Shown here one piece after another: positions 934-64,000 of a stretch of DNA of 64,000 bases. The position numbers and the translations under genes are program-made. Under the pieces are notes generated by a model. That model was not told the DNA's origin and did no database searches. It was given only the letters and a program-made list of their open reading frames with translations. Source of the DNA: a virus. Numbering within the stretch: the first letter of the stretch is position 1; every line of letters starts with the position of its first letter. The DNA is taken from IMG/VR virus record IMGVR_UViG_3300044568_004391, positions 32,001-96,000 of that record. One strand, 5' to 3'.

Positions 934-2130
934 ATGAAAAATACAGAATTTGATAACCTCGTTGAAAGACTTCTCAATGAAGCTTTGGACGAAAAAATTG
1001 ATGAGATAAAGTCCAAATTGGAAGTTACGGAGAAAAAAGATGAAAAGTGGATTCAACGTATTGATATGAAGAGAGGATTCTTGAAGAAATACTGTGGTGG
1101 TGAAGTGACTTGTGACTGTGTTGAAAAGGCATTAAAAGAAGGTGGTAAACCAGCAAAACGAGCTAATCTTTACTTGAATATGAACTCTGATAAATGCAAG
1201 AGTTTGCAAAAAGAAAACGAAGCGGATAGATTGTTAACTAAATTGGTTGAAGTAATCAAAGAAGAATTAGGTGAGGAAGAGATGACTGAAGGAAATGCAT
1301 TTTCTGAAGCAAGATGTAAAGCAGGTTGTAAAGGAGGAAACGGAGCTAAGATAGAAGGATTTGATGGAAAAGTAGTTAAAGATTGGTCAGACGATGATAA
1401 AGAATCTTGTGGATGTAAAGATTTGAAGGAATCAAGAAAAAAGAAAATGAAGTTGACTGAAAATGAGTTGATTGATTTAATTGAAAGAATTGTTAAAGAA
1501 GAAAAGGCAAAAGGATTACAGGTTTACAACAAAGTTCACAATGAGGACGGAAAAGAAAATAAACAAGCACTTGATGCGGTTGCTAAAAAAATGAAGGACT
1601 ACACCAAAGATGGATCAAACGGTAAATTTGATATGGATCCCGTAATGTTCCCAAAAGGTAATTTGGAATTGAAAAAAGAGAAAGTTAAGAAGTATACACC
1701 ATCAGAGGCAGTTGAAGAGTATATTGAAGCGTTTGCGTATCCAGGACAAACAAACTTGAGATTTGATGAGATCAAACCTGATGATGAGTTAATTAAAAAA
1801 TATTTGGAGGGTGACTCAACAACAGGAAACGCACAGGTTGACAAAGATGGAAAACCACTTGGTAATGTTACACCTGATGAGGTAGGAAAGAGATTTAAGA
1901 AGAACTATGATGAAAATCTTTATGGTATTGAGCAAGCTGAAGGATCATACAAGAGAGTAACACAACCAGTGGATCTTGCAGGTGATAACACAAAAGATGG
2001 TAAATTACAAAAGAAATCAGACAAAGTTTTGACAAAATTAGAATCGGTTGAAGATAAGAAGGAGAAAAAATTGAACGAGGAACTTGAAAAGATTAAATCA
2101 ATCACAGGTTATAATCAGAAAACACAATAA
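934..2130 (+). CDS. Lys/Glu-rich modular protein, putative head-internal protein with several [ILV]xE sites
   Basis: 398 aa; leader LVERLLNEA, internal MKLTENELIDLIERIVKEE, C-terminal LNEELEKIK; TATTTAT at 913. Confidence 0.5.
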   Translation: MKNTEFDNLVERLLNEALDEKIDEIKSKLEVTEKKDEKWIQRIDMKRGFLKKYCGGEVTCDCVEKALKEGGKPAKRANLYLNMNSDKCKSLQKENEADRLLTKLVEVIKEELGEEEMTEGNAFSEARCKAGCKGGNGAKIEGFDGKVVKDWSDDDKESCGCKDLKESRKKKMKLTENELIDLIERIVKEEKAKGLQVYNKVHNEDGKENKQALDAVAKKMKDYTKDGSNGKFDMDPVMFPKGNLELKKEKVKKYTPSEAVEEYIEAFAYPGQTNLRFDEIKPDDELIKKYLEGDSTTGNAQVDKDGKPLGNVTPDEVGKRFKKNYDENLYGIEQAEGSYKRVTQPVDLAGDNTKDGKLQKKSDKVLTKLESVEDKKEKKLNEELEKIKSITGYNQKTQ

Positions 2131-2150
2131 GTTCAAATATAAATCTAAAT

Positions 2151-2182
2151 AAATATTCCCGACTTGATCGGGAATATTTTTT
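2151..2182 (+). terminator. Intrinsic terminator hairpin
   Basis: AAATATTCCCGA-CTTGA-TCGGGAATATTT followed by T run. Confidence 0.75.
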
Positions 2183-2217
2183 ATGTATAATTTTTAATTG
2201 TTTATTAAAATTATATT

Positions 2218-2703
2218 ATGAGAGAAAAAGCAAGCATCGTGAACACATACGACGAGAGGGAACTTGAAATTTGGTACAAGGCAAATAATATAATTGACGA
2301 GTATTGTGAATTATTTGAAGATTTTATTATTGGACTCTATTTTATAATTGATAAGACGTATTTGGGTCCTGACTCAGAGGGTGGTGTTGAAACAAATATA
2401 GTCTTGAATGATCAGGATATCCGTAATCACTTCGATTGGTGTTGGAGAAAAAACATAGATAATTTCAGAAAAGAAAATATTTTCTTTGAAGAAGAAGGTG
2501 ATCACAAAACATACTTTAATCAGTTTTTCAATGAGACATACTATTACCAAAGTATGGTGGAAATCAAAGAAAGTATCCCTGTTTTTTTCTCTGAACTCTT
2601 TGAATATAAAACAGTAGATACTCAAATTAATTTACAAATGATTGTTGAGATCTACAAAAATCTATATAAGTCTTTACAAAAAACAAATAAACCTAATTTT
2701 TAA
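2218..2703 (+). CDS. Hypothetical protein
   Basis: 161 aa ORF, phage-like codon use. Confidence 0.7.
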   Translation: MREKASIVNTYDERELEIWYKANNIIDEYCELFEDFIIGLYFIIDKTYLGPDSEGGVETNIVLNDQDIRNHFDWCWRKNIDNFRKENIFFEEEGDHKTYFNQFFNETYYYQSMVEIKESIPVFFSELFEYKTVDTQINLQMIVEIYKNLYKSLQKTNKPNF

Positions 2704-2731
2704 GTAAAATAAACCAAAACATTTTTAAAAA

Positions 2732-2914
2732 ATGGAAACATTAGAACAAATCAAGACCTTGGTTGAGAGCTTGAACAACGACGCAACAAAATTCTTTACC
2801 AGCGGAAACAAAAGTGCAGGTACAAGAGCTCGTAAAACTTCACAGGAGATCAAGGCTCTTCTTCAAACTTTGAGAGGTGAAATCTTGGAGGAAAGAAAAA
2901 AGGACAATGAGTAA
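2732..2914 (+). CDS. Histone H1-like (Hc1-type) small nucleoid protein
   Basis: KFFTSGNKSAGTRARK...LR motif typical of Bacteroidota Hc1-like proteins. Confidence 0.7.
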   Translation: METLEQIKTLVESLNNDATKFFTSGNKSAGTRARKTSQEIKALLQTLRGEILEERKKDNE

Positions 2915-3089
2915 TATTCAGTTTTTTTTTGATATGATTTTTTATTTTAGTTTGTTGTCAATCTTCAAACTTATATTTGAATTCGTATCGGCTTTGTTTG
3001 ATAGTCCACCCAAAAGGTTGAGACTATCAAACAATTCTCTTATATTTTATGGAGTAACCTTAAGTTACATTTTATCTTATTTAATATGA
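2907..3089 (+). CDS. Small membrane protein
   Basis: Two hydrophobic segments; ATG at 2907 overlaps the upstream stop. Confidence 0.55.
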   Translation: MSNIQFFFDMIFYFSLLSIFKLIFEFVSALFDSPPKRLRLSNNSLIFYGVTLSYILSYLI

Positions 3090-3472
3090 ACTACTTTTTT
3101 TTAGAAAACATTACATATTTTAATAAACTCACAAAGTTGGGAAATTATCTTTGTTTTGAATTTAATTTCCCAACTTCTTGGGAGGTAGACGGAGAACTTG
3201 TCTCTGCATTTAAACACGAATTGAAGAAGGGGGAGAAATTCTACTCACTTTCCCTTTGGACTGAGTTTTCTGATACGCAAGTTTTTTCTATGGAAGAAAC
3301 CGTATCAAAAATTATTAGATACAACAGAGAGTTAGAGGAGAAGGAAAGACTATTCAAGGAAAAGGTCAAAGAACTTCGTAGTATATTTTTGGAAGGAGAC
3401 TTGGATAGTTTGAAGAAGATCAAATTTGAAACAGAGGAATCCATAATAGAATCCGATGAGACGACAAAATGA
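3086..3472 (+). CDS. Hypothetical protein (C-terminal coiled coil)
   Basis: 128 aa ORF, operon-like packing. Confidence 0.65.
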   Translation: MNYFFLENITYFNKLTKLGNYLCFEFNFPTSWEVDGELVSAFKHELKKGEKFYSLSLWTEFSDTQVFSMEETVSKIIRYNRELEEKERLFKEKVKELRSIFLEGDLDSLKKIKFETEESIIESDETTK

Positions 3473-8598: not shown

Positions 8599-8769
8599 AT
8601 GAAAGATATTATTAAAAGGGTTCTTCATACTTGGAAAGAAGAAACCACCGAAGAGAAATATAAAAAACCAAGGAAGTATAGTAAATCCTATTGTAAATCT
8701 ACACCTTGTTCGGAGATGGGGTTTTCACAAAAGGCATCTTGTAGACCATACAAAAATTGTTATAATTAA
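8599..8769 (+). CDS. Small Cys-rich protein with leader (56 aa, not in ORF track)
   Basis: MKDIIKRVLHTWKEE...YCKSTPCSEMGFSQKASCRPYKNCYN; TATTTAT 4 nt upstream. Confidence 0.6.
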   Translation: MKDIIKRVLHTWKEETTEEKYKKPRKYSKSYCKSTPCSEMGFSQKASCRPYKNCYN

Positions 8770-9687: not shown

Positions 9688-11133
9688 ATGAAATTTGTTA
9701 AAATTTTAAAGCAACTCATTCTTGAGGCAAAAAACACAGAAGAACTATTAAACACTTATGCTTATGGTGAAAAAAAATCAGACAAAGGTAAGGTTAAAAG
9801 ATCTTTGATGACACCTGAGGAGTTGATGGTGATCATAGCTAATGACCCCACATCAAGGATTAAAGGTCTTCGACCAGAAAATGTTGTCAACCAATTATAT
9901 AACCCAACGATAAAAGATTCTCAAGATTATATTGATCTTGGTCTCGAAGCGGTTGAAAAACCTGGTGATTATACTGAATGGATCATCACACAGTTAAGGA
10001 AATTGGCGATCAAGGTGGACCAAGAGGTTCCATTCAAAGAAAACAGAGAAGCATTTGAAAGAGCCTATCAAAGGGCTAGACGTCTATTTTTTGAAGACCT
10101 ATTTAAAGTGAAACAGGATTTAATTAGATTTCATGCTAATAAAAAGACCGATAGGATTGAGAAAAAAGATATTAATCAATATGCTAACTTTGATGAATTG
10201 GAATCTGTTGTTGCATCACTACCACTAGAGACTGCAACAACAACAAGATCTGAAAGAAGAGAATCCAAAGTTCACCCTGGAGCTGAGATGGTTTTTGAAA
10301 GTCCAAATTGGGATATTATTAAAATTGAAAGACAAGACGAACTTGGAAGAGAGGCGGCTTGTTTCTATGGTGGAAATCAATTGAGAAAAGAAAGAGGAGA
10401 GACCAATTGGTGTACATCAGCACCAAATGCATCTGGACCTTTCAAAAATTACATCAGTAAAGGACCATTATTTGTTTTAATTCCAAAAGGTGGAAACACA
10501 ACGTTTGGCCCTAAAGATGTAGGAGATATTTCAGGTCTTCCTTCAAGAAGATATCAATTCCACTTTGAAGACAAACAATTTATGGATCCAGATGACAGTC
10601 AGATAGATTTGCTTGAATTTTTCGGACCGGGAGGAGAAATGGAAGAACTCAAAGAATTCTTCAGACCCTATTTTGGTAAAATATTCTTGAAGGGTGAAAA
10701 TACCAATAACAAAACTTTTAAATTGGAATATCCTTCAGGTGGAGCATCGAAGTATGCTGCAATTTATGGATTGGATACAATCATCGATTCTATTCCTGAT
10801 TCCATCACCACATTCGAAGTCATCAATAAAAGTAATACACCACTCGATCTAAAAATAGATGAAGATTTTGTGAAAAAATTCAGTAACTTAAAAGCACTTC
10901 ATTTACATAATGCGGTCTCATCACTCCCAAGTAATTTGGGTGATTTGAATCTTAAGTTCTTGGCAGTCACAAACTCAAAAAATATCGATGAAATCCCTCA
11001 ATCAGTTGACAGATTGGTTGAAGATGGAACTCTTACCTTAGCAAGTTTTGCCGGAAGCAATCCAAACTTGAAATTACCAGAAAAACTCCAAAAAGCTCTT
11101 GAAGATGGAGATATTATTGGTTATTTTGGATAA
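9688..11133 (+). CDS. Leader-bearing protein with KKDINQY/WCTS domain and C-terminal LRRs
   Basis: MKFVKILKQLILEA leader; KKDINQY; YGG...TNWCTSA; LKALHLHN...LPSNLGDL LRR-like region. Confidence 0.6.
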   Translation: MKFVKILKQLILEAKNTEELLNTYAYGEKKSDKGKVKRSLMTPEELMVIIANDPTSRIKGLRPENVVNQLYNPTIKDSQDYIDLGLEAVEKPGDYTEWIITQLRKLAIKVDQEVPFKENREAFERAYQRARRLFFEDLFKVKQDLIRFHANKKTDRIEKKDINQYANFDELESVVASLPLETATTTRSERRESKVHPGAEMVFESPNWDIIKIERQDELGREAACFYGGNQLRKERGETNWCTSAPNASGPFKNYISKGPLFVLIPKGGNTTFGPKDVGDISGLPSRRYQFHFEDKQFMDPDDSQIDLLEFFGPGGEMEELKEFFRPYFGKIFLKGENTNNKTFKLEYPSGGASKYAAIYGLDTIIDSIPDSITTFEVINKSNTPLDLKIDEDFVKKFSNLKALHLHNAVSSLPSNLGDLNLKFLAVTNSKNIDEIPQSVDRLVEDGTLTLASFAGSNPNLKLPEKLQKALEDGDIIGYFG

Positions 11134-15243: not shown

Positions 15244-16770
15244 ATGAAATTTTATGATTTTTTGATACTAGAGAATGAGAAATTTAAACAAAAGTTTGAT
15301 TCGGGAAGGTATCGTAAAATAGAGAGTATTGCTCAAAGATCTTTAGATCAAAATGATATAATTGAATTTTTGGGTGAAAATTTAGATTCACTATACGGTG
15401 ATGAACAGTTATTTGAATTGAAGGATTTGATTGTCAATTTCAAACAAGTAAAAGAATTTTTGGATAAGAAGTCTTTGAAGGAGTATAGTTCTTCAGAAGA
15501 ATTGAAACAAGCATTGAATAATTTAAAGAAAGATATGTTAAATTTGAATACATCTGCTGATGTAATTAAAGTTTACGAAGATGAAAATTATGTTTTGGTT
15601 TATCCTGAAAACTTTACCTCCGCTAAATTATATGGGGGTCTGATCAATAATCCATATTCTGTTTCCAAAGATGAAATTAAGTATTTGAAAGAAAAATTAT
15701 ATGGTGTCACTTTCTATTTAATACCCAAAAATGGTAGTGAATTTACTTACAAAATAACATATAAATTTGGAGATGAGTTTATGATATTCGACAAGGGGGG
15801 TACAAGAATCGGAATAAATCGAATTGATAGATCTATTTTACAAAAATGTAGAGACTTTGTTTACGAAAAATTCAAAAAAATAGTTAATATCTTTGAAGAT
15901 GATTATTTGAAAGAAAAATATATTGCTCTTAATTTGGAAGGTATTGAACAAAAAGCTAAACAAAATCAAGACAAACTTAGACAAGAGGACGCCTGGTTTG
16001 GAACCGATATTGGAAACAGAGCAAAGGCGGCTTTCGAATATTCTAAGGATTATCGTAATGCTGGTTTTGAAGAATTACGTGATATTTACGACTTATATTG
16101 GGACGGTTATGCTGAGTTCAGTACAGAACCTGAAGGGGAGGGTGTGGTCTTCAGAGTTTTAAACCAAGAAGAAGCGGACAACGAATCACAACAATATTGG
16201 GAAAGTTATGTTGATGATGTTGATCCGACAGAGGCATTTAGTCGAAGTTATTTAAATCATTTTCTCGATGAAGAAAAAATCAAAGAATATTTTTGGTCAC
16301 TTATGGAGGACCAAATCAAAGATGATCTCGAATCGTATTTCGAAGTTGAAGAATTACCCATCAATTCATACGACCAAAGAAAAATTGATAGGTTAAAAAG
16401 TGAAAAAGATTCCCTTCAACAGGAAATAGATAATGAAGAGATGAGTGATGAGGACATTAAAAGTCATCAAGAAAGAATAGATGAAATTGATTTGGAAATT
16501 GAAGAGATAGAAGAAAATGCTGAAAGGGAACCAACCAGTAATCAGATCGAAGAAAAAATCGATGAAGAATGGTATGATGTATCAAGGGGAAGTTTGATCG
16601 ATTGGATTGAGGATATAGGGTTGGATTTAGGGGATTTTCTAGATACTGAAGCGTTAATCAAAAATTTAATAAGTGACGGTGAATATGGTTCATCATTATC
16701 TACATATGATGGTGATTACAACTATTATAATATGGACGGAAAGGATTATTATGCTTTTAGAATTTCATGA
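15244..16770 (+). CDS. Acidic leader-bearing protein with coiled coil
   Basis: MKFYDFLILE leader; N-half resembles 9688 and 16767; TATTTATA at 15223. Confidence 0.6.
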   Translation: MKFYDFLILENEKFKQKFDSGRYRKIESIAQRSLDQNDIIEFLGENLDSLYGDEQLFELKDLIVNFKQVKEFLDKKSLKEYSSSEELKQALNNLKKDMLNLNTSADVIKVYEDENYVLVYPENFTSAKLYGGLINNPYSVSKDEIKYLKEKLYGVTFYLIPKNGSEFTYKITYKFGDEFMIFDKGGTRIGINRIDRSILQKCRDFVYEKFKKIVNIFEDDYLKEKYIALNLEGIEQKAKQNQDKLRQEDAWFGTDIGNRAKAAFEYSKDYRNAGFEELRDIYDLYWDGYAEFSTEPEGEGVVFRVLNQEEADNESQQYWESYVDDVDPTEAFSRSYLNHFLDEEKIKEYFWSLMEDQIKDDLESYFEVEELPINSYDQRKIDRLKSEKDSLQQEIDNEEMSDEDIKSHQERIDEIDLEIEEIEENAEREPTSNQIEEKIDEEWYDVSRGSLIDWIEDIGLDLGDFLDTEALIKNLISDGEYGSSLSTYDGDYNYYNMDGKDYYAFRIS

Positions 16771-19993: not shown

Positions 19994-20305
19994 TCACATG
20001 AAGTGTCTTTTAATCTTCTCGTGACTATATTCCATAATGACCTTCCTTACTTTGGGGAGGTCATTTTCATTTAGTTTCATTTTCTTGTTCAGATAATCAA
20101 TCATGTGAACTGTATCTGAATCCACGATTGTGTATTCGGATAAACCGATAGGTTTACTGGTGAAAGACTTCTTAGCTCTATCAAACCAAACCATAGAAAG
20201 GTTGGGAGATTCCAACTCTTCAAAAAACACACAATATCGTTGATCCTGTCTTTCAACGAAAACATTAAACTTTTCATCCAAGATTTTTATAATAGACTTC
20301 TTCAT
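19994..20305 (-). CDS. Hypothetical protein
   Basis: 103 aa; MKKSIIKILDE leader-like start. Confidence 0.6.
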   Translation of the reverse strand: MKKSIIKILDEKFNVFVERQDQRYCVFFEELESPNLSMVWFDRAKKSFTSKPIGLSEYTIVDSDTVHMIDYLNKKMKLNENDLPKVRKVIMEYSHEKIKRHFM

Positions 20306-20340: not shown

Positions 20341-20790
20341 ATGAAAATTTTAGATATCTTAAAAAGATTGATCAAGGAATATATTCATCCTGATGCTTCA
20401 GTTATATATGAAACAAAACTTAAAGGTAAGGATTTTATATTTTACGATAGTCCACACTTATATGAGATCAGAAAAGATTTTGGAACGGTTAGATTAAAAG
20501 ATATGTCATTGTTAATAGATATATGTAAGAGTACCGTGTTCAAGCTTTATACTCAGTACTATAGGATGAACAAACACTATAGAGAGATTGACGAGTACGA
20601 CCCCAAAAAAATCAGATTTGGAGTTGTAAAGAAGTTTGAAAATAAGGACGTGATGGTGATCATGCAGATTGAGAAGTTTGATAGAAAGGAGGGATTTATC
20701 ATCGTGGTGATAACAATCTTTGATGAGGAGGGTATAACACCAAGATCTTTGGAAAGAAATTATAATACAAGATTTTTCTTGGAAGTTTAA
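20341..20790 (+). CDS. Leader-bearing hypothetical protein (possible BECR/RelE-like fold)
   Basis: MKILDILKRLIKE leader; SPHLYEIR...IIVVITIF; TATTTAT 4 nt upstream. Confidence 0.55.
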   Translation: MKILDILKRLIKEYIHPDASVIYETKLKGKDFIFYDSPHLYEIRKDFGTVRLKDMSLLIDICKSTVFKLYTQYYRMNKHYREIDEYDPKKIRFGVVKKFENKDVMVIMQIEKFDRKEGFIIVVITIFDEEGITPRSLERNYNTRFFLEV

Positions 20791-48286: not shown

Positions 48287-48886
48287 TCATAGTCTAACAA
48301 TTAAAGCACCAACATCCACCATACTTTTTATTTCTTCATTTGTTTTTGTTGATAAATAACTGTTCAAATAAAGTCTTGCACCAACAGATTTAAGATTTCC
48401 AAAGGATTCAATTTGTGTTCCTCTTATGTCCAAATAACCACCTACGGATTGAAGATTTCCAAGGGATTTAATTGGTGTTTTATTTAAATCCAAAGATGCT
48501 CCAACAGTCCTGAGATTTCCAAGGGATTCAATTGGAGTTTCTTCCAAATTCAAATCATCACCAACAGATTGAAGATTTCCAAGAGATTCAATTTGTGAGT
48601 TGTATAGGTTCAAATAACCATCAACCGATATAAGATTTTTGAAGGATTTGATTTCTGTTCCATATGCATTAAAATCACCACTAATAGAAACAAGACCTTC
48701 AAGCCAAGTTAAATCACCTTTATATCCACCCAAATCCAAATCATCATCCAACGACCATCTTGTGATGTTATTTTTTTTGATGAAGTTTTTTAGTCCTTCA
48801 ACTCCATCAGGGAAATAGTGAAGACCAGGTATTACAAATATCTCTTCGGTTTCCTCTTTTAATATTTTTTTGATTAGGTCTTTCAT
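48287..48886 (-). CDS. Variable LRR protein (5 repeats)
   Basis: MKDLIKKILKEETEE leader; 60-bp repeat units. Confidence 0.8.
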   Translation of the reverse strand: MKDLIKKILKEETEEIFVIPGLHYFPDGVEGLKNFIKKNNITRWSLDDDLDLGGYKGDLTWLEGLVSISGDFNAYGTEIKSFKNLISVDGYLNLYNSQIESLGNLQSVGDDLNLEETPIESLGNLRTVGASLDLNKTPIKSLGNLQSVGGYLDIRGTQIESFGNLKSVGARLYLNSYLSTKTNEEIKSMVDVGALIVRL

Positions 48887-49545
48887 TATCTAATAATTCT
48901 ACCACCAACATTTATCATACCTCTAATTTCTTCATCTGTATAATTCTTCAAAACGTATTTGTTTAACCACAAATTAGTACCAACATATTGAAGTTTTGGA
49001 AGGGATTCAATTTGTGTTCCTCTTATATCTAAATAATCACCAACCGACTGAAGATTTGGAAGGTCTTTAATTGGTGTTCCCTCCAAATCCAAACTACCAC
49101 CAACCGATTGAAGGTTTCCAAGGTCTTTAATTTGTGTTTTTCTTAAATCCAACCCACCACCAACCGATTGAAGATTTGGAAGGGATTCAATTTCTGTTCC
49201 TCTTAAATGTAAAAAACTACCAACCGATTGAAGATTTGGAAGGGATTTAATTTGTGTGCTTCTTATATCTAAATAACCACCAACAGATTGAAGATTTCCA
49301 AGAAATTTAATTTCTGTCCTTTCCAAATCCAAAAAACCCGTGATCGAAACAAGTCCTTCAATCCAAGTTAAATCATCTCCATATTCACGGAAATCCACAT
49401 CATCATCCAACGACCATCTTTTGATGTTCTTTTTTTGAATGAAGTTTTTTAATCCGTAAATTTCATCAGGAAAAAAACTAAGACTAGGTATTACAAATAC
49501 CTCTTCGGTTTCTTCTTTTAATATTTTTTTGATTAAGTCTTTCAT
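48886..49545 (-). CDS. Variable LRR protein (6 repeats)
   Basis: Same leader and caps; 60-bp repeat units. Confidence 0.8.
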   Translation of the reverse strand: MKDLIKKILKEETEEVFVIPSLSFFPDEIYGLKNFIQKKNIKRWSLDDDVDFREYGDDLTWIEGLVSITGFLDLERTEIKFLGNLQSVGGYLDIRSTQIKSLPNLQSVGSFLHLRGTEIESLPNLQSVGGGLDLRKTQIKDLGNLQSVGGSLDLEGTPIKDLPNLQSVGDYLDIRGTQIESLPKLQYVGTNLWLNKYVLKNYTDEEIRGMINVGGRIIR

Positions 49546-50264
49546 GGTCTTAAAATTCCACCACCAACATTTATTATATTTCTAATTTCTTCATTTGTAT
49601 ATTTTTCTGAAAGGAATTTGTTTAAAAATAAATCATATTTAACCGATTGAAGATTTTCAAAGGATTCAATTTGTGTTCTTCTTATATCTAAAGAACCACC
49701 AACAGATTGGAGTTTTGGAAGGGATTTAATTTTTGTTCCTCCTATAAACAAATTACCACCAACCGATTGAAGGTTTCCAAGGGATTTAACTTGTGTTCCA
49801 GTTAAATCCAAATGTTTACCAACATATTTAAGATTTGGAAGGGATTCTATTTGTGTTCCTCTTGTATCTAAAGACCTACCAACCGATTGAAGATTATCAA
49901 GGGATTTAATTTGTGTGCTTCTTATATCTAAATAACCACCAACCGATTGGAGATTTGGAAGGGATTTAATTTGTGTGCTTTTTATATCTAAATAACCACC
50001 AACCGATTGAAGATTATCAAGGGATTTAATTTTTTTTCCTTCCAAATCCAAATAACCACTAATGGAAACAAGACCTTCAAGCCAAGTTAAATCATCTCCA
50101 TATTCACGGAAATCCAAATCATCATCCAACGACCATCTTTTGATGTTCTTTTTTTGAATGAAGTTTTTTAATCCGTCAATTTCATCAGGAAAAAAACTAA
50201 GACCAGGTATTACAAATATCTCTTCGGTTTCTTCTTTTAATATTTTTTTGATTAAGTCTTTCAT
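49542..50264 (-). CDS. Variable LRR protein (7 repeats)
   Basis: Same leader and caps; minus-strand TATTTAT at 50273-50279. Confidence 0.8.
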   Translation of the reverse strand: MKDLIKKILKEETEEIFVIPGLSFFPDEIDGLKNFIQKKNIKRWSLDDDLDFREYGDDLTWLEGLVSISGYLDLEGKKIKSLDNLQSVGGYLDIKSTQIKSLPNLQSVGGYLDIRSTQIKSLDNLQSVGRSLDTRGTQIESLPNLKYVGKHLDLTGTQVKSLGNLQSVGGNLFIGGTKIKSLPKLQSVGGSLDIRRTQIESFENLQSVKYDLFLNKFLSEKYTNEEIRNIINVGGGILRP

Positions 50265-54741: not shown

Positions 54742-54742
54742 A

Positions 54743-55243
54743 ATGAATCTACAAGAACAACTATCAAAAATGAAATCAATGATGGGGATCATTAAGGAAG
54801 ATGATAATCAAAGAGTTCATTTTGATATGCAAGATTTATTGGACAGAGGAATTATCTTTATAACACAAGCCCACGATTTATCTACAGGTGAAATGATTCC
54901 ACCACAAGAAGATCCTCAAACAGGTGAAATATACAACGATTCAACAAATTTAATTACCTTATGGAATGTAACTCATCCAGAAGAAGGTGAACAAGATTTT
55001 ATTTCAAAGGCATTAGAACATCCAAGACCTGACCAAATTTCATATTGGCAAAACGCGCAAAATCAATTAAGTCAGGAAAAATATGATCAGATATTAAGAA
55101 GTATTGAATTACAAAATAAAAACTCAGCCGAACTAACGGAGGGAGAATTAACTGAAAGATGTTGGAAAGGATATACCCAAAAGGGTATGAAAACTATGTT
55201 CGGAAAGAAATACCCTAACTGTGTAAAGAAAACAAAAAAATGA
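54743..55243 (+). CDS. Leader-bearing protein with C-terminal CWKGY...PNCV module
   Basis: MNLQEQLSKMKSMMGIIKE leader shared with 55240. Confidence 0.7.
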   Translation: MNLQEQLSKMKSMMGIIKEDDNQRVHFDMQDLLDRGIIFITQAHDLSTGEMIPPQEDPQTGEIYNDSTNLITLWNVTHPEEGEQDFISKALEHPRPDQISYWQNAQNQLSQEKYDQILRSIELQNKNSAELTEGELTERCWKGYTQKGMKTMFGKKYPNCVKKTKK

Positions 55244-55620
55244 AATTACAAGAACAATTATCAAGAATGAAATCAATGATGGGGATCATCAAAGAGAATG
55301 AGGCAACTGAACTCATACAAGATATGGTGGATGAGGTTTTGGAGTCATTAAGAAAGTATGCTAATGATGCGGATGACTTAGAAGACATAACAACCATAAG
55401 AATAATTAACTCCATAGATAAAATCCAAGTAACCGATTTCACAACAAATAGGTTTGAACCCAATATACATCTTGTAATTTATCAAAACAAAGACATCTCA
55501 AACTATGATTTAGTATTGGAACAAATGTATTCAAAGTTCAATACCCTCATCCCAAATCTATTAATACAGATAGATGATGTGATCAACAGCGAAACAGGAC
55601 AATCTGTATACGGATTTTAA
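55240..55620 (+). CDS. Leader-bearing hypothetical protein
   Basis: MKLQEQLSRMKSMMGIIKE leader. Confidence 0.7.
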   Translation: MKLQEQLSRMKSMMGIIKENEATELIQDMVDEVLESLRKYANDADDLEDITTIRIINSIDKIQVTDFTTNRFEPNIHLVIYQNKDISNYDLVLEQMYSKFNTLIPNLLIQIDDVINSETGQSVYGF

Positions 55621-56644: not shown

Positions 56645-57007
56645 TCAGGGGACTAAGTATACTATTGTTTTAGAAGGTCTCCAATCTTGTATTTCAAAAT
56701 CTGTAACCTTATTGATATCCAAGTAATCGGATAAGATGGGTGATATTGATATTATGAATTTTTCAATAAAGGTAAAAAAATCCTCTTCGTTTAAAGTATT
56801 TTTGATAATTCCGTAGGCGGGTAGTGTGTCATATATATCAAATCTACCCAACACATCAATAGAATTATATTCTTCATATGTAAAGATATGAGTTTGATCC
56901 ACATAATAAAATACTGTTATATTACCTCTTGAATCTCTGTGGGGAACTAATCTCCCACCTTTAAGTTCAGATAGAACTAGGGATATGAGTTTATCAATTT
57001 TTTTCAT
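56645..57007 (-). CDS. Paralog family A member
   Basis: MKKIDKLISLVLSELKGG. Confidence 0.65.
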   Translation of the reverse strand: MKKIDKLISLVLSELKGGRLVPHRDSRGNITVFYYVDQTHIFTYEEYNSIDVLGRFDIYDTLPAYGIIKNTLNEEDFFTFIEKFIISISPILSDYLDINKVTDFEIQDWRPSKTIVYLVP

Positions 57008-57401
57008 GATCGAAATATACTCTTGAGTAACCCCATTGGTCATAGAGATCATTTACATGTATGATGTTCACTTTGTTTATATCCACAATTTCAGAAAATA
57101 TGGGAAGGATTGCCATGGTTAATTTCTCGATAAACTCTTTTAATTCTTCTTTTGAGACGGAAGACAAGATTATTTTAAAGTGGGGTATATTACCATAGAT
57201 GTTAAGAAAGTTTTCTCCGAGTCCTCTGGGAGCAAAACTTCGTTGTAAATATAATACCATTTCTTTATCGACATAATAATAACCCAACCTTTTTCCGTAT
57301 GGATTAAACTCTGATTCACCTGCGGGTCTAAGTTCTTTATATAATCTCCCACCTTCGAGTTCGGGAAGGACCAACTTAACGAGTTTATCTAATTTATTCA
57401 T
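56994..57401 (-). CDS. Paralog family A member
   Basis: MNKLDKLVKLVLPELEGG. Confidence 0.7.
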   Translation of the reverse strand: MNKLDKLVKLVLPELEGGRLYKELRPAGESEFNPYGKRLGYYYVDKEMVLYLQRSFAPRGLGENFLNIYGNIPHFKIILSSVSKEELKEFIEKLTMAILPIFSEIVDINKVNIIHVNDLYDQWGYSRVYFDHEKN

Positions 57402-57775
57402 TTTAAGTTATAGTATACAATTGTTTTTTCATGTCTTACCTCCGCCACCCTTATGGACGATATATCTTCGGGATCCAAGACTTCCGAGAAGTAGGGTAGA
57501 ATTAGTTTTGCAAATTCTTCCATCAGTTCATAGAATTCTTTTGGGGGTAATGATGACAATAACAAACTATAGGTGGGGAGATTATCGGTAATAAATAAAG
57601 CCCAATAATCAGAACGGTTAAGATAAAATTTGTCTAGCTGTAAGTGGCAAATAGTTTCATGTTCTTTATTATAAAGAATGGCTATTGTGTATTCTGTGTC
57701 TTCAACCACTTTTACATGCAAGTCATCTTGAATTTCAGATAGAATTACTTTTGCGAGTTTGTTGATCTTATTCAT
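57398..57775 (-). CDS. Paralog family A member
   Basis: MNKINKLAKVILSEI. Confidence 0.7.
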   Translation of the reverse strand: MNKINKLAKVILSEIQDDLHVKVVEDTEYTIAILYNKEHETICHLQLDKFYLNRSDYWALFITDNLPTYSLLLSSLPPKEFYELMEEFAKLILPYFSEVLDPEDISSIRVAEVRHEKTIVYYNLK

Positions 57776-58128
57776 CTGTATACAATATAAGATATAAAAT
57801 GGTTGGGATAGATGCTCGACACCACCACCTCACCGTAATAATCTATTAAGTCGGGAAGGATCACATATGCGATTTTCAATGCAAAGATTTCCTGATCGGT
57901 CCTATCAAGCAAACCCAGAATCATATTCATATTTTCAATCCGAGCGGAAACGATCCTGAGTTCATAATAACTGCTGTCCTGATCATCAAGCAGTGTGGCG
58001 ATTATCCTCCCCGAAGGGTCCCTCAAATCAGAAACAGTATTGTGATCATTGTAGTGCTTGCTTTTTACAAGATCCAAATTCTCTAACTCAGGTATCATGA
58101 GAGAAACGAGTTTGTCTATCTTCTTCAT
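57772..58128 (-). CDS. Paralog family A member
   Basis: MKKIDKLVSLMIPELE; minus-strand TATTTAT at 58134-58140. Confidence 0.7.
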   Translation of the reverse strand: MKKIDKLVSLMIPELENLDLVKSKHYNDHNTVSDLRDPSGRIIATLLDDQDSSYYELRIVSARIENMNMILGLLDRTDQEIFALKIAYVILPDLIDYYGEVVVSSIYPNHFISYIVYR

Positions 58129-58269: not shown

Positions 58270-58626
58270 TTAAGTAAACCAATATTCACCTCCACCCACC
58301 TTTCCCTGAAAAGTTAAATCCTGTGGGTAAACCTTCTTCGGGATCCTTGTTCCCAACATAGAAACCATTTTCTTGAATACTCCCTTGACAACCTTAAACA
58401 TATCAGTCCATTCCAACATATTGACAACACCATTGGATTCAATAAAGTCCTTCTCAAAATAAAACTCCGATCCTATCCTATATGTGAAAAAACCAACCAA
58501 CTGACCATCCTTCCTAACAAATAACTGATTGTATCCATGCAACATATTCGGTTCCCTGATCTCAACCTCCAACGGTCCATCATCCAAGATAGAGTCAACC
58601 AATGTATTTAATTGTCTCTCTGTCAT
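58270..58626 (-). CDS. Paralog family B member
   Basis: MTERQLNTLVDSI...SNGV..ML; TATTTAT at 58642-48 (minus). Confidence 0.7.
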   Translation of the reverse strand: MTERQLNTLVDSILDDGPLEVEIREPNMLHGYNQLFVRKDGQLVGFFTYRIGSEFYFEKDFIESNGVVNMLEWTDMFKVVKGVFKKMVSMLGTRIPKKVYPQDLTFQGKVGGGEYWFT

Positions 58627-58627
58627 T

Positions 58628-58966
58628 TCAATTCCTTGTAAATAAATACCCACCCGTAAGTTTACAACAATATTCTAAACTATCCAATATAGATGGGTTG
58701 GGTATATATTCTTTAACAATAGAAGCAACCCTTCCGTATAAACCATAAAGAAGTTCTATCTGATCCTCCTCCTTTAACATATCAAATACACCATTGGATT
58801 TAACAAACTCAGGCCATAAGAAAAAGTTAATGTCACCACCATACGCAGCAACCCAATCACCATCTTGAGTTTGAACATTACACCTCCCTTCTTCACCAAC
58901 ATTAACAACTAATTCATTGTCACCTATTATGCTTTCAACCAAAGTATTTAATTGTCTCTCTGTCAT
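58628..58966 (-). CDS. Paralog family B member
   Basis: MTERQLNTLVESI...SNGV..ML; TATTTAT at 58985-91 (minus). Confidence 0.7.
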   Translation of the reverse strand: MTERQLNTLVESIIGDNELVVNVGEEGRCNVQTQDGDWVAAYGGDINFFLWPEFVKSNGVFDMLKEEDQIELLYGLYGRVASIVKEYIPNPSILDSLEYCCKLTGGYLFTRN

Positions 58967-60490: not shown

Positions 60491-60566
60491 GGTTAATTTA
60501 TATCCCCTCCCTTATTGGTGAGGGGTTTTTTATTTTTTATTATATTTATTTGTAAATAATAATTCT

Positions 60567-61067: not shown

Positions 61068-61469
61068 ATGGCACAACGACTAATATTAACAGAAGAAGAA
61101 AAGAGAAACATCCAAAAGATGTATGGTATGATTAATGAACAAGAAGAGACCAATTTCGATAAAAATTACTTTATGTCTAAAAAGACGGGAACTGTAACCT
61201 TCGGTTCTCAAGCCATTCCATTAGAAGTTGACGGGATTAAGGTTTCTGACTACAAGACCCAATGGAAAAGAAATTTCAAAATAGAGAATATAGGGGGTAG
61301 AGGATTTCAACCTGGGGTTTTCACATGGACATACGGAGAGGAAGTTCCAACGGGAGTTATGGGTTATAGTACTGATTCTGATGTACGTACATCAGAACCA
61401 GGTATATCAATAAAAGATAGTGCAAATAAAGAAGTTGGCACACTTATTTTTGAGTTACCTTGGGATTAA
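61068..61469 (+). CDS. Leader-bearing cargo protein
   Basis: Same 25-aa leader as 60567, unrelated remainder. Confidence 0.75.
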   Translation: MAQRLILTEEEKRNIQKMYGMINEQEETNFDKNYFMSKKTGTVTFGSQAIPLEVDGIKVSDYKTQWKRNFKIENIGGRGFQPGVFTWTYGEEVPTGVMGYSTDSDVRTSEPGISIKDSANKEVGTLIFELPWD

Positions 61470-61559: not shown

Positions 61560-61970
61560 ATGAGAAAAGTTAGATTGACGGAATCAGAATTGGTCCGTAT
61601 CATAGAAAGAATTGTAAAAGAAGAATCCTTAACGGGAGGTAGATCAAAACCAGAATTCAAAGGTAGATTGGCTAAATCCAAAAAAGATTTTGGGATGGGA
61701 TGGAGAGATGAATATGACAGCCCATCTGAAGGACCAGGTGAGAGATCAGGTTCGATTGTGAGTTATGAAGATTTTATGCGTTTCGCAGAAGACCACCCCG
61801 ATTTGGCTGAGTTTTATTTTGGTTGGGCCGGTGATGAATCAGGTGAAGTTTTTGACAAATATGGTGGTGTAGATCTATTTAATCCTGAAGAAGATATGGC
61901 AAATCTTGAAGAGATGAAAAGAAAAGTCAGAGTTATGGAAAATAAACTCAAAAGGAAAATGGGAAGATAA
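61560..61970 (+). CDS. Leader-bearing cargo protein
   Basis: MRKVRLTESELVRIIERIVKEE. Confidence 0.75.
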   Translation: MRKVRLTESELVRIIERIVKEESLTGGRSKPEFKGRLAKSKKDFGMGWRDEYDSPSEGPGERSGSIVSYEDFMRFAEDHPDLAEFYFGWAGDESGEVFDKYGGVDLFNPEEDMANLEEMKRKVRVMENKLKRKMGR

Positions 61971-61974: not shown

Positions 61975-62382
61975 ATGAAAAAAGTTGTAAGATTAACGGA
62001 AAATGATTTGATTAGATTAACCAAGAGAGTTCTACTCGAATCGAAAGCTCAAGAGGCGGTAGACACCGCCTTTGAAAAATTTGAATCAGGTCAAAAACCT
62101 CCAGCAGGTATGGTTCAAAATGTAAAAAAATGTTTGGAGAATACACCTCTCAGAAATATTGTTTTGGCTGGGGGAGATGTTGCTCAGTTAATTTTGAGTG
62201 TATTAGCATTGACGTTACTTGTCATGGTTGGTTGGGAAGCAGCATTGGTTGTGGCGGGGATTCATGGGGCACTTAGTATTTTAGAACACACATATAAAAT
62301 AAAAGGTGTAAATGTTTTTGCAAAATCAGAAAAAGATATAAAATTTTTCGTTAATTGTTTACAATCAAAAGGGGTAATTTAA
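61975..62382 (+). CDS. Leader-bearing protein with hydrophobic hairpin
   Basis: MKKVVRLTENDLIRLTKRVLLES; long hydrophobic stretch. Confidence 0.7.
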   Translation: MKKVVRLTENDLIRLTKRVLLESKAQEAVDTAFEKFESGQKPPAGMVQNVKKCLENTPLRNIVLAGGDVAQLILSVLALTLLVMVGWEAALVVAGIHGALSILEHTYKIKGVNVFAKSEKDIKFFVNCLQSKGVI

Positions 62383-62428
62383 TAATCGATATTTCTTCTT
62401 TTATTGGAATAAAAAATAAAATTATTTC

Positions 62429-62455
62429 GGGGACCGAATTGGTCCCCTTTTTTTT
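62429..62455 (+). terminator. Intrinsic terminator
   Basis: GGGGACC-GAATT-GGTCCCC-T run. Confidence 0.8.
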
Positions 62456-62530
62456 GAAATCTAAAATTTCTGGAAAATTTTTTGATATTATGGGGGTTTA
62501 TTCTTATGTTTATAATATAGACCCAAAATT

Positions 62531-62959
62531 ATGAAACATATCATTTCCGTTATTTGTTTTATGATCTTCTCTCTTGTGGGAAGTTCACAAACCATCACAA
62601 AGGCTGCCATCTATAGATCCACCAATCAGAAGATTTCCATTTCAGAATTTGCTGGCGGTGCCATCATCTTCTATTATCAAAATCCTGACTATACTCACAT
62701 CGTTGACCTCCTTCATTTCGGGGTTCAAAACAAGACCGAAGCTCTTGCTCTTATGGATGAATGTCTTCATGTTTTGAGTATGGAAAAAACCGGACAAGAC
62801 CAACATATCTATCATAACTATAAATTCCATCAGATCATCCGGTATGGGTTCAATCAAAACTCCGTCATCATCGGCCGGTTATATCTGAATGCCAAAACCA
62901 TCGAGGAAATCAAACTTGCTCTTCTGAACTATTCTTATTCATCAATCAAAAATCAATAA
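62531..62959 (+). CDS. Secreted hypothetical protein
   Basis: Bacteroidota-type signal peptide ending SSQ. Confidence 0.65.
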   Translation: MKHIISVICFMIFSLVGSSQTITKAAIYRSTNQKISISEFAGGAIIFYYQNPDYTHIVDLLHFGVQNKTEALALMDECLHVLSMEKTGQDQHIYHNYKFHQIIRYGFNQNSVIIGRLYLNAKTIEEIKLALLNYSYSSIKNQ

Positions 62960-62960
62960 T

Positions 62961-63569
62961 ATGAAAAAAGTTATTATCTTAATTTGTTTGGGACTTATTT
63001 CCTTGACCTCTTCTTCCCAACAATATATCGATATATTTCATTCAAGTCGCGGACCACATGTGATTAGCGCTTGTGAAGATGGAAAAGGTGGTTATGTTCA
63101 TTTCTATCAAATGGAACCTATGGGGTTTTCAAGATCTACTCTTCTCTTTTTTGAAAATAAATCTGAAGACGATTCTCTGTCCGATGATTTTTATGAGGTG
63201 ATTGACTTAACAAAAAAAATGTTAAAAAGAAAATATGTTGAAAAAAGAAAGGAAACTCCCGACACAACTCTTGTCAATTTCACCACAAATATGAAATGTG
63301 CCTTTCTTCATAAGGATGTTTGGTATTTTGATCGTGATGTAAACCTTTCTTATGAACTCACCAGAGAACCTTGGGGTATGGAAATAAAGGTCGAAACTGA
63401 TCGTCTCTGCGATGATAAAAACCCAAATATCTGCGTCCAAGGTGGAAGGTTTGTATTTTTGGATTATGAAGATTTTTATCTCTTCCCACTTTATTATTTG
63501 GATTGGGATGATGTGAATAGAATTCTAAACGAAAAAAAATCTCTTGAGCAATATTTTATTGATCAATAA
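62961..63569 (+). CDS. Secreted hypothetical protein
   Basis: Signal peptide ending SSSQ. Confidence 0.65.
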   Translation: MKKVIILICLGLISLTSSSQQYIDIFHSSRGPHVISACEDGKGGYVHFYQMEPMGFSRSTLLFFENKSEDDSLSDDFYEVIDLTKKMLKRKYVEKRKETPDTTLVNFTTNMKCAFLHKDVWYFDRDVNLSYELTREPWGMEIKVETDRLCDDKNPNICVQGGRFVFLDYEDFYLFPLYYLDWDDVNRILNEKKSLEQYFIDQ

Positions 63570-63599
63570 TTTTTATTGTTTCCCTATGTATTTATTAAT

Positions 63600-64000
63600 A
63601 TGGGAAAAAGAATTGTAATTTCAGAAAATGAGAAAGTAAAAATTCGTAAGTTATATGGATTGTCTGAAGGACTTGATTTTGAGCAGATCATGCTTGGGAT
63701 CGGGTCCATCATTTTTTTAAGAAAGTTTTTTCAAGGACTTCGTTCTGATCCCAAATTCAAAGCATTATTTCTTCGTGATGAAGATGTGGAACAGAATATC
63801 AAACACTTGGATAAGGTGATGGAAAGATATTTGAATGGTCTCGATGAGTATTACAGTGATATTGAAGAATATGACCGGGTGGAAATTCGTGATATATATG
63901 AAAACGATATTAAACCTTTGCTCAGAGAAAAGAAACTTGTGGATATGGAAGATATTGTGAATTATTTGAGTTACAAACTAGATTATCTTAACAAACAAAA
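63600..64000 (+). CDS. Leader-bearing protein (3'-partial, not in ORF track)
   Basis: MGKRIVISENEKVKIRKLYGLSEG...; open to window end; TATTTAT at 63589. Confidence 0.7.
   Translation, partial: MGKRIVISENEKVKIRKLYGLSEGLDFEQIMLGIGSIIFLRKFFQGLRSDPKFKALFLRDEDVEQNIKHLDKVMERYLNGLDEYYSDIEEYDRVEIRDIYENDIKPLLREKKLVDMEDIVNYLSYKLDYLNKQ

What the first reader, a model, noticed from the sequence alone, without database searches (positions are those of the whole stretch)
934..64000. Genome-wide leader/cargo system: about 25 proteins with short N-terminal leaders ending in [ILV]-x-E
Seen: unrelated proteins start with amphipathic basic leaders ending in LNE/ILE/IKE/LKE/INE/VKE/LLE/LSE. Examples: 934, 9688, 15244, 16767, 20341, 32415, 32780 (lysozyme), 33457 (DHH), the four LRR genes, 40427, 54743, 55240, 60567, 61068, 61560, 61975 and 63600. 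Most of these genes or their operons are preceded by TATTTAT. Known: T4 internal proteins carry an N-terminal capsid-targeting sequence removed by prohead protease gp21 after (I/L)-x-E. Inference: a much expanded head-packaging address system that loads dozens of diverse effectors into the virion for injection, a delivery arsenal that could be reprogrammed.
Basis: partly seen in the sequence, partly recalled or inferred. Interest (0 to 1): 0.8.

Follow-up and report, generated by a model that had tools for sequence, protein, structure and literature searches.

The report
Capsid-cargo leader tags in lake phage
A large uncultured T4-type phage of Bacteroidota puts short, interchangeable N-terminal tags, each ending in the cutting motif of the T4-type head protease, on about 28 mostly unrelated late proteins in this window. 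This is most likely a greatly enlarged version of T4's system for loading proteins into the capsid, but neither cutting nor packaging has been measured.

Summary
In the window, 28 genes (about 20 unrelated cargo families) begin with recurring amphipathic leaders of at least five classes.

- **Chance:** the bare [ILV]-x-E motif is not above chance (43% against about 35%). The leader families are: N-terminal 28-mers of non-homologous proteins match far more often than internal or C-terminal ones.
- **Best-defined class:** MKK[IV][IV]RLTESDLxRIVKRVIxE is strictly N-terminal. It occurs on more than 90 different cargoes in IMG/VR. It is conserved at the peptide level, not the codon level, and conservation collapses right after the Glu.
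- **Expression:** 27 of 28 genes lie in units headed by TATTTAT. In a complete 294-kb relative, this motif precedes the portal, protease, scaffold, sheath and tube genes.
- **Protease:** the own record is a 52% fragment with no head genes. All 8 complete relatives that carry the tag encode a T4 gp21-type protease. Their capsid protein keeps [ILV]-x-E|A/S at T4's cleavage column.
- **Cargo:** includes a lysozyme, an M23 peptidase and LRR proteins.

I read these as capsid-targeting propeptides (confidence about 0.6). Cleavage and packaging are untested. Two listed examples (16767, 33457) are weak.

The scan has noted the same tag and similar systems in other phage genomes. This is a new variant of a known kind.

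The parts
934..2130 (+). Late gene; leader MKNTEFDNLVERLLNE| (nt 934-981), 398-aa cargo of unknown function
   Evidence: TATTTAT at -21. The G001 orthologue 195629 keeps a leader, MRKINNLVNKILSE|.
8599..8769 (+). Small gene (56 aa) with class C-like start MKDIIKRVLHTWKE|ETTEE; uncertain member
   Evidence: TATTTAT at -11.
9688..11133 (+). Leader MKFVKILKQLILE| plus 481-aa cargo with a weak LRR signal
   Evidence: TATTTAT at -23. G001 orthologue: MKFTTLLKSVILE|N.
15244..16770 (+). Leader MKFYDFLILE| plus 508-aa cargo. The next gene, 16767-17756 (MTKNTLIKE|), is a weak candidate in the same unit.
   Evidence: G001 orthologue: MNYHLKKILKSIISE|Q.
19994..20305 (-). Small gene starting MKKSIIKILDE|; weak candidate with no TATTTAT
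20341..20790 (+). Leader MKILDILKRLIKE| plus 149-aa cargo
   Evidence: TATTTAT at -36 and -11.
32415..32777 (+). Class B variant leader MGRITTDENEKQRILNLHLEATKRHYLKE|; first gene of a late unit
   Evidence: TATTTAT at -24.
32780..33460 (+). Class B leader MKFQITESEKKRIKDLYQINE|, then an acidic Ser/Asp linker, then a phage lysozyme domain (residues 80-209)
   Evidence: Pfam PF00959, 1.6e-20.. In the same unit as 32415.
33457..34863 (+). DHH-family protein; the 7-residue 'leader' MKKVINE is not convincing
   Evidence: The orthologue starts MRKIISE|SGIR, and residues 8-24 are conserved as part of the body.
35211..35756 (-). LRR protein with leader MRSLIKQILKE|ETEE
   Evidence: TATTTAT at -12.
40427..40738 (+). 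Leader MAKFVITQKQLDYIVENVKKDKLNE| plus 78-aa cargo
   Evidence: TATTTAT at -24. G001 orthologue: MTRYVFTEKQLEKIKEDLNRPEITE|G.
48287..50264 (-). Three tandem LRR genes (49542-50264, 48886-49545, 48287-48886), each starting MKDLIKKILKE|ETEE
   Evidence: Pfam Recep_L/LRR hits.. TATTTAT at -15 before the first gene.
54743..55620 (+). Two genes (54743-55243, 55240-55620) with near-identical leaders M(N/K)LQEQLS(K/R)MKSMMGIIKE| and unrelated cargo
   Evidence: DNA identity covers the leader codons and is lost just past the leader's final Glu codon.
56645..58128 (-). Four tandem small genes with class E leaders (MNKLDKLVKLVLPELE|, MNKINKLAKVILSE|, MKKIDKLVSLMIPELE|, MKKIDKLISLVLSE|)
   Evidence: TATTTAT at -12 before 57772-58128.
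58270..58966 (-). Two paralogues starting MTERQLNTLV(D/E)SI(L/I)(D/G)D. The leader-like helix ends in Asp, not Glu.
   Evidence: TATTTAT at -22 and -25. In T4, Asp at the cut position allows targeting but blocks processing (PMC9026906).
60567..60980 (+). Class B leader MTQRLILTEEEKRNIQKMYGMINE|Q plus 113-aa cargo
   Evidence: Promoter and leader DNA are nearly identical to 61068, and the identity ends after the INE-Q codons.
61068..61469 (+). Same class B leader (MAQRLILTEEEKRNIQKMYGMINE|Q) on an unrelated 109-aa cargo
61560..61970 (+). Class A leader MRKVRLTESELVRIIERIVKE|, variable middle, conserved basic C-terminal helix
   Evidence: In alignment A1 the leader is invariant up to E21 and the middle is variable. 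AF2 predicts helix 8-24, then low-confidence residues 25-65. HMM E=4e-6, at the first Met.
61975..62382 (+). Class A leader MKKVVRLTENDLIRLTKRVLLE| plus unrelated cargo
   Evidence: HMM E=2.6e-9, at the first Met..
63600..64000 (+). Class B leader MGKRIVISENEKVKIRKLYGLSE|G; the gene runs past the window end (to 64028)
   Evidence: TATTTAT at -11.
60537..60566 (+). Example of the late-promoter element (ATTATATTTATTTGTAAA) placed between a GC hairpin/T-run and the ATG; repeated before 61068
   Evidence: In G001 the same motif precedes the portal, protease, scaffold, sheath and tube genes.

Best explanation
The leaders are capsid-targeting propeptides of the T4 type.

Proposed mechanism:
1. Each tagged gene is transcribed late, from a TATTTAT promoter, together with the head genes.
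2. Its N-terminal amphipathic helix (10-29 residues) binds the scaffolding core of the assembling prohead, so the attached cargo is enclosed.
3. The gp21-family (Peptidase_S77) prohead protease cuts after the Glu of the terminal [ILV]-x-E and frees the mature cargo inside the head.
4. The cargo leaves with the DNA at infection.
5. New cargo is recruited by joining a coding body to a promoter-plus-leader cassette.

Shown by sequence:
- The leaders are strictly N-terminal.
- They are conserved at the peptide level, and conservation ends sharply at I-x-E.
- They share a promoter motif with the structural genes.
- The protease and the conserved capsid-protein cut site are present in relatives.
- Leader classes are interchangeable on homologous cargo.

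Inferred, not shown: binding to the scaffold, cleavage, encapsidation, ejection, and what any cargo does.
For: 1. T4-type head machinery in relatives.
- G001 is 294 kb, 100% complete and syntenic with the own record: 79 of 210 genes hit, median 42% identity.
- It has Portal_T4, Peptidase_S77 (88 bits) and Gp23.
- 15 of 17 further tag-bearing records have S77, including 7 of 7 that are at least 90% complete.

2. Protease rule conserved.
- At the column of T4 gp23's LTE|A cut, immuto has VSE|A, the G001 group INE|A/S, and G009/G010 IYE|A.
- The immuto scaffold starts MSNKDLLKQAIAE|A, like T4 gp22 MLKEQLIAE|A and the T4 CTS MKTYQEFIAE|A.
- gp21 cuts after L/I-X-E, and 10 residues of IPIII suffice for targeting (PMC9026906; PMC3012670).

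3. Shape of the class A tag in 77 distinct IMG/VR copies.
- Positions 14-20 and 22 are conserved: P3 is I65/V7/L3, P1 is E71.
- P2 is free.
- Information content falls from about 3.8 to under 1 bit right after the Glu.

4. Position. 83 of 93 pattern hits start at residue 6 of the ORF, and the cargoes are unrelated. All HMM hits sit at the first Met.

5. Selection acts on the peptide. Conserved residues use many synonymous codons; for example R18 is AGA 31, CGA 20, AGG 9, CGT 7.

6. All classes end in [ILV]xE[polar].

7. Late co-expression.

8. Homologous cargo carries different classes.
- Lysozyme: class B in the own record, class C in G001.
- M23 peptidase: class C against class F.
- This suggests one shared destination.

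9. Identical leader on unrelated cargo, with the DNA identity ending at the cut site.

10. AF2 places the leader as a helix followed by a low-confidence stretch.

11. Cell-wall hydrolases as cargo would fit proteins that leave the virion during infection (this last step is inference).
Against: - No experiment exists. No virion proteome, N-terminal mapping or fusion test is available for these phages.
- The own record has no protease, scaffold or capsid gene. The link rests on relatives with about 42% median identity.
- The co-occurrence of tag and S77 protease may reflect only shared ancestry within one phage clade.
- [ILV]-x-E alone is common, so its presence at any single site is weak evidence.
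- Thirty to sixty cargo species per genome is about ten times the T4 count.
- At least five different leader classes need explaining if all bind one scaffold.
- The long classes show no detectable homology to the T4 CTS.
- The AF2 model is of low confidence (mean pLDDT 55).
Confidence: 0.6

Rival explanations
1. The leaders are docking or oligomerisation helices that stay on the mature proteins. They would address the proteins to another common partner, such as the tail or baseplate, the membrane, DNA or a phage hub protein. The terminal Glu would then be part of the helix and not a cut site.
For: - The hydrophobic residues follow a heptad-like stripe.
- There are several classes.
- One class A cargo gives a weak HU-like hit that includes the leader region (E=0.0025, below cut-off).
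- Class F leaders sit on large proteins. One neighbour's G001 homologue lies in the tail module, next to the tube gene.
Against: - Conservation stops exactly at I-x-E, with a free P2.
- All classes share this ending.
- The same rule holds at the capsid-protein maturation site.
- A linker or low-confidence stretch follows the leader.
Confidence: 0.2
2. The leaders are regulatory or chaperone-recognition propeptides. They might hold lytic enzymes inactive, or be bound by the phage's own Hsp70/J-domain system. They would have nothing to do with packaging.
For: - The own record encodes a protein whose N-terminus reads like a J domain (window 4401-5339; read by eye, not confirmed by a family search).
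- G001 encodes a protein that starts like DnaK (228871; read by eye, not confirmed by a family search).
- RIVKRVI is a basic-flanked hydrophobic core of the kind Hsp70 binds (my own knowledge).
- Some cargoes are wall hydrolases.
Against: - Most cargo is not lytic.
- This idea does not explain the invariant terminal Glu, the match to the capsid-protein cut site, or the strict co-expression with structural genes.
Confidence: 0.08
3. The tag is the recognition sequence of a modifying enzyme, in the manner of RiPP leaders. An earlier follow-up in this scan proposed this for a shared tag in phage RB43.
For: An earlier scan note (e1-127136) shows that shared N-terminal tags in T4-like phages need not be packaging signals.
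Against: - No radical-SAM gene in the own record or in four complete relatives, while all 14 control genomes gave a match.
- The tagged genes are scattered over the genome, not clustered beside one enzyme.
Confidence: 0.03
4. Artefact: AT-rich composition (Lys/Ile/Asn/Glu-rich proteins), recent paralogy, or a conserved 5' RNA/DNA element whose translation is incidental.
For: - The genome is 33% G+C.
- Several members are tandem paralogues.
- Some promoter-leader cassettes are identical at the DNA level.
Against: - Internal and C-terminal controls, which share the composition, show no such similarity.
- About 20 unrelated cargo families carry leaders.
- Conserved residues show synonymous codon diversity.
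- More than 120 IMG/VR hits for the class A pattern, against 4 for another pattern with 17 fixed bases.
Confidence: 0.02

Closest known systems
Phage T4 internal proteins IPI, IPII, IPIII and Alt: capsid-targeting sequence (CTS) removed by prohead protease gp21 (Mullaney and Black; reviewed in PMC3012670 and PMC9026906)
   Same: - N-terminal tag on otherwise unrelated proteins.
- The tag ends in hydrophobic-x-Glu.
- Late expression.
- A T4-type portal, S77 protease and Gp23 capsid in relatives.
- The short class C tags (MKDLIKKILKE|, MKFVKILKQLILE|) have the length and pattern of MKTYQEFIAE|.
- Variable cargo behind a conserved tag, as at the T-even ip loci.
   Different: - Scale: 28 genes in 64 kb and an estimated 50 or so in a complete relative, against four or five in T4.
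- At least five classes, most of them 19-29 residues long and without detectable similarity to the T4 CTS.
- P3 is often Val.
- Each unit has its own terminator-promoter-leader cassette.
- The host is Bacteroidota.
- Nothing has been tested experimentally.
Head and inner-body (ejection) proteins of phiKZ, 201phi2-1 and SPN3US, processed by gp175/gp245 after S/A/G-x-E (PMC9026906, PMC7411985, PMC10052503)
   Same: - Jumbo phages that pack dozens of protein species (more than 40 MDa in SPN3US) into the head.
- They are trimmed after Glu by a distant gp21 relative.
- This shows that the cargo load proposed here is physically plausible.
   Different: - Different capsid lineage and cut rule: a small residue at P3.
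- Propeptides there are long and not a short shared portable tag.
- Here P3 is I/V/L and the capsid protein is a clear Gp23 family member.
Encapsulin cargo-loading peptides
   Same: A short peptide addresses varied cargo to the interior of an HK97-fold shell (my own knowledge).
   Different: - Mostly C-terminal.
- Not cleaved.
- No DNA or ejection.
- Not tested here; an analogy only.

Membership tests
T4-type CTS / gp21-processed head cargo | The phage encodes a gp21-family (Peptidase_S77) prohead protease | tested here: inconclusive
   Not found in the own record, which is a 52% fragment without head genes. Present in the syntenic complete relative G001. Present in 15 of 17 other tag-bearing records, including 7 of 7 that are at least 90% complete.
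T4-type CTS / gp21-processed head cargo | The tag lies at the extreme N-terminus of the precursor | tested here: met
   All class A HMM hits at E<0.02 start at the first Met in six-frame searches. 83 of 93 IMG/VR hits are at residue 6.
T4-type CTS / gp21-processed head cargo | The tag ends in (L/I)-x-E with a free middle residue | tested here: met
   Class A: P3 is I65/V7/L3, P2 is variable, P1 is E in 71 of 77, and conservation collapses after it. Classes B and F: 9/12 and 6/9 against 10% background.
T4-type CTS / gp21-processed head cargo | The same cut rule is used at the major capsid protein maturation site | tested here: met
   T4 LTE|A aligns with VSE|A (immuto), INE|A/S (G001 group) and IYE|A (G009, G010). 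Tested in relatives only.
T4-type CTS / gp21-processed head cargo | Late expression together with head genes | tested here: met
   Promoter-motif inference only. TATTTAT precedes 27 of 28 tag units. In G001 it precedes the portal, protease, scaffold, sheath and tube genes. Association p=1e-5 and 5e-7.
T4-type CTS / gp21-processed head cargo | Proteolytic removal of the tag during head maturation | not testable with these tools
   Needs N-terminal mapping or a protease assay.
T4-type CTS / gp21-processed head cargo | The tag is necessary and sufficient for encapsidation | not testable with these tools
   Needs fusion and deletion experiments in a cultured relative.
T4-type CTS / gp21-processed head cargo | Sequence homology of the tag to the T4 CTS MKTYQEFIAE | tested here: inconclusive
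   The short class C tags share length and pattern only. The long classes are not alignable. The peptides are too short for a homology test.
phiKZ-type processed head proteins | Cut after S/A/G-x-E; phiKZ-type capsid and gp175-type protease | tested here: not met
   P3 is I/V/L. The capsid is Gp23 and the protease scores over the S77 cut-off.
RiPP-like / radical-SAM recognised leader tags | A co-encoded radical-SAM (SPASM) maturase | tested here: not met
   No PF04055 match in the own record or in four complete relatives. All 14 control genomes gave a match.
Sec / lipoprotein signal peptides | A hydrophobic h-region after a basic n-region | tested here: not met
   The leaders are charged amphipathic helices. 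True signal peptides form a separate N-terminal cluster in the same genomes.

The most novel reading that the evidence does not exclude
The leader classes form an address code, not mere redundancy. Different classes would sort cargo to different places or copy numbers in the virion, or to different ejection times. The terminator-promoter-leader cassette, whose DNA identity stops at the cut-site codon, would act as a recombination landing pad. That would make the locus an integron-like cargo-capture system, without an integrase, spread across a large clade of Bacteroidota jumbo phages.
Probability: 0.15. Interest if true: 0.8.

Novelty: new variant of a known kind. Interest (0 to 1): 0.6.

Why it matters
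If the tags work as inferred, these lake phages deliver dozens of proteins into the host together with their DNA. That is far more than T4 delivers. It would turn a large block of unannotated small phage genes into a defined class: pre-made, injected proteins. That class is where anti-defence and takeover functions would be expected.

The 22-residue RLTESDL tag is a simple marker for finding such cargo in metagenomes. The idea can be tested directly, because the cultured Flavobacterium phage vB_FspM_immuto has related short tags, the same late-promoter motif and a T4-like scaffold N-terminus. It also shows how new cargo may be recruited, by fusion behind a promoter-leader cassette.

Tried and rejected
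- **Bare motif:** [ILVM]-x-E counting is not informative.
- **Family libraries:** Pfam and PHROGs scans of tag proteins found no family covering any leader and almost no cargo annotation.
- **Literature:** a string search for LTESDL/RLTESDL/LTESEL gave nothing relevant.
- **Protease in the own record:** PF03420 absent. I therefore used relatives as a proxy.
- **Nucleotide search of cultured phages:** only a thymidylate synthase stretch matched, in Flavobacterium phage immuto.
- **Class A pattern in immuto:** no match. Immuto has other, shorter classes.
- **Class B codon-restricted scan of IMG/VR:** only 4 hits, too restrictive. It served as a calibration for chance.
- **Radical-SAM tag alternative:** rejected.
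- **RNA/DNA-level conservation:** rejected as the general cause because of synonymous codon diversity. Two gene pairs do share recent DNA cassettes.
- **Portable C-terminal module:** the conserved C-terminal helix of the 61560 family occurs once in the own record and not in G001.
- **AF2 of the 61560 family:** low confidence, used only for the helix and low-confidence-stretch pattern.
- **Capsid alignment:** two loci (L173, L174) gave wrong ORFs in my script and were ignored.

Full report
**What the window is**

The window is bases 32001-96000 of a 151,984-bp IMG/VR virus record. The record is about 33% G+C, and CheckV rates it about 52% complete. The only nucleotide match among cultured phages is a thymidylate synthase stretch of Flavobacterium phage vB_FspM_immuto. 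A virion protein upstream of the window resembles structural proteins of T4-like cyanophages.

The record holds no head module, and PF03420 (T4 gp21 protease) is not found in it. I therefore looked for a complete relative.

IMGVR_UViG_3300027804_000038 (G001) is 293,850 bp and 100% complete. It is collinear with the own record over tens of kilobases. 79 of 210 genes have a hit, with median 42% identity. G001 carries Portal_T4, Peptidase_S77, an acidic scaffold-like protein and a Gp23 capsid protein in T4 order.

**The observation**

The bare motif does not carry the finding. [ILVM]-x-E ends at residue 8-30 in 43% of genes, against about 35% in internal windows of the same size.

What is real is a set of recurring N-terminal peptides:
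- Class A: xRLTESDLxRIIxRVIxE
- Class B: I[TS]ExEKxRIxxLYGxxxE
- Class C: MKDLIKKILKE or MKFVKILKQLILE
- Class D/F: LQEQLSRMKSMMGIIKE, LxEISRIKELM
- Class E: MNKLDKLVKLVLPELE

After excluding pairs whose bodies are homologous, N-terminal 28-mers reach an ungapped score of 40 or more in 26 pairs. Internal segments give 3 pairs and C-terminal segments give 6. In G001 the counts are 68, 6 and 4. True signal peptides form their own separate cluster.

In the window I count 28 tagged genes. They fall into about 20 cargo families with no BLASTP similarity to one another.

**The best-defined tag**

Another pattern with 17 fixed bases gave only 4.
- In 83 of 93 cases the motif starts at residue 6 of the ORF.
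- The consensus is MKK[IV][IV]RLTESDLxRIVKRVIxE, followed by unrelated sequence.
- Most copies have TATTTAT just upstream.

In 77 distinct copies, the positions not fixed by my pattern are highly conserved up to residue 22. P3 is I65/V7/L3, P2 is free, and P1 is Glu in 71. Information content then drops below 1 bit.

Conserved residues use many synonymous codons; for example, Arg18 is AGA 31, CGA 20, AGG 9 and CGT 7. Selection therefore acts on the peptide, not on an RNA or DNA element.

An HMM built from these copies finds 4 matches in the own record and 8 in G001 at E<0.02. Every one sits at the first Met of an ORF in six-frame translations.

Homologues of the 61560 protein keep the leader invariant up to Glu21 while the middle diverges. 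AF2 (mean pLDDT 55) draws the leader as a helix followed by a low-confidence stretch.

**A shared ending**

I then defined classes B and F by their core only. A terminal [ILV]-x-E-[polar] follows within 16 residues in 9 of 12 class B proteins and 6 of 9 class F proteins. The background rate is 10% (p=1.6e-7 and 6e-5). Most of those scored 'none' still have [ILV]-x-E, but with a non-polar next residue.

**Link to the head protease**

T4 gp21 cuts after L/I-X-E. The first 10 residues of IPIII (MKTYQEFIAE) suffice for encapsidation (PMC9026906; PMC3012670; sequences read).
- At the alignment column of T4 gp23's LTE|A cut, immuto has VSE|A, eight relatives of the G001 group have INE|A/S, and two 400-kb relatives have IYE|A.
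- The immuto scaffold begins MSNKDLLKQAIAE|A, close to T4 gp22 MLKEQLIAE|A.
- Of 17 further records that carry the RLTESDL tag, 15 encode an S77 protease, including all 7 that are at least 90% complete.

This co-occurrence may be phylogenetic, but it meets a necessary condition.

**Expression**

ATATTTAT is about three times over-represented in the window: 29 matches against 9.8+/-3.1 expected. TATTTAT lies 11-26 nt before start codons. It is associated with tagged genes: 13/21 against 30/189 (p=1e-5) in the own record, and 19/30 against 66/352 (p=5e-7) in G001.

In G001 it precedes the portal, protease, scaffold, sheath, tube and baseplate-size genes, so I read it as the late promoter. The same holds in immuto. 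In the window, 27 of 28 tagged genes lie in a unit headed by it.

**Modularity**

Genes 60567 and 61068 share about 105 nt of nearly identical DNA. The shared stretch runs from the promoter through the leader, and the identity ends right after the INE-Q codons. Their cargoes are unrelated. Genes 54743 and 55240 behave the same way.

Homologous cargo carries different classes in the two genomes. The lysozyme has class B here and class C in G001. The M23 peptidase has class C here and class F in G001. This suggests that the classes serve the same end.

Recognisable cargo is limited to the following; the rest is unannotated:
- a phage lysozyme behind a linker
- an M23 peptidase with a PG-binding domain
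- four LRR proteins
- a PG-binding protein
- PPK2, in G001

**Rivals**

- *Modifying-enzyme tag.* Suggested by an earlier scan note on RB43. It finds no support: no radical-SAM gene in five genomes, while all controls gave a match.
- *Composition or paralogy.* Excluded by the controls.
- *A retained docking helix, or a chaperone or regulatory propeptide.* These remain possible. They do not explain the sharp boundary at I-x-E or the match to the capsid-protein cut site.

**Verdict**

This is a much enlarged, multi-class variant of the T4 capsid-targeting system in jumbo phages of Bacteroidota. Earlier notes of this scan record words of the same RLTESDL tag in 13 windows of 11 genomes, and similar leader systems in other T4-like phages. 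I found no paper that describes this tag.

Noticed in passing
window 39346-39746 (+): A full-length GOLLD RNA (Rfam RF02032, 263.9 bits against a gathering score of 150) lies in the ORF-free block between 38813 and 40063.
   Followed up: partly
window 61900-61970 (+), C-terminus of the 61560 protein: All homologues keep a basic C-terminal helix, LEEMKRKVRVMENKLRRKKQMRRR, while the middle diverges. It begins with L-E-E|M, so it could be a second, C-terminal propeptide (as in T4 Alt) or a DNA-binding tail. It occurs once in the own record and not in G001.
   Followed up: partly
window 60500-60680 and 61001-61181; 54700-54850 and 55197-55347: These are terminator-promoter-leader cassettes with near-identical DNA. 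In the 60567/61068 pair the identity ends exactly after the cut-site codons. The layout would allow cargo exchange by recombination.
   Followed up: yes
window 58270-58966 (-): Two paralogues have a leader-like helix that ends in Asp (SILDD|G, SIIGD|N) instead of Glu. In T4, Asp at that position still targets the protein but is not processed (PMC9026906).
   Followed up: no
L019:5806-6906 (G001 25806-26906): A polyphosphate kinase 2 domain (PF03976, 1.8e-72) sits behind a class F leader and a spacer of about 100 residues. It is an unexpected enzyme for virion cargo.
   Followed up: no
MW353175 (L157-L164), e.g. 102294-103359, 111675-112139, 123355-123576: The cultured Flavobacterium phage vB_FspM_immuto has related short leaders (MKKSQLRQIIKE.., MKKQILSEQFKRMQFLAGIITE|S), several of them beside its head genes, and the same TATTTAT motif before structural genes. 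It could serve as an experimental model.
   Followed up: partly
window 4401-5339 (+); G001 228871-230733: The phage encodes a protein whose N-terminus reads like a J domain, and the relative encodes a protein that starts like DnaK. I read both by eye from the N-termini and ran no family search on either.
   Followed up: no
L003:75-422 (genome 96075-96422, just beyond the window end): A class A tagged 115-aa protein gives a weak, sub-threshold HU/Bac_DNA_binding hit (E=0.0025) over residues 8-83.
   Followed up: no
window 51509-52630 (-), 62531-62959, 62961-63569 (+): Several proteins have Bacteroidota-style signal peptides ending in ..FSQ/SSQ. They form an N-terminal similarity cluster distinct from the leaders.
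   Followed up: no
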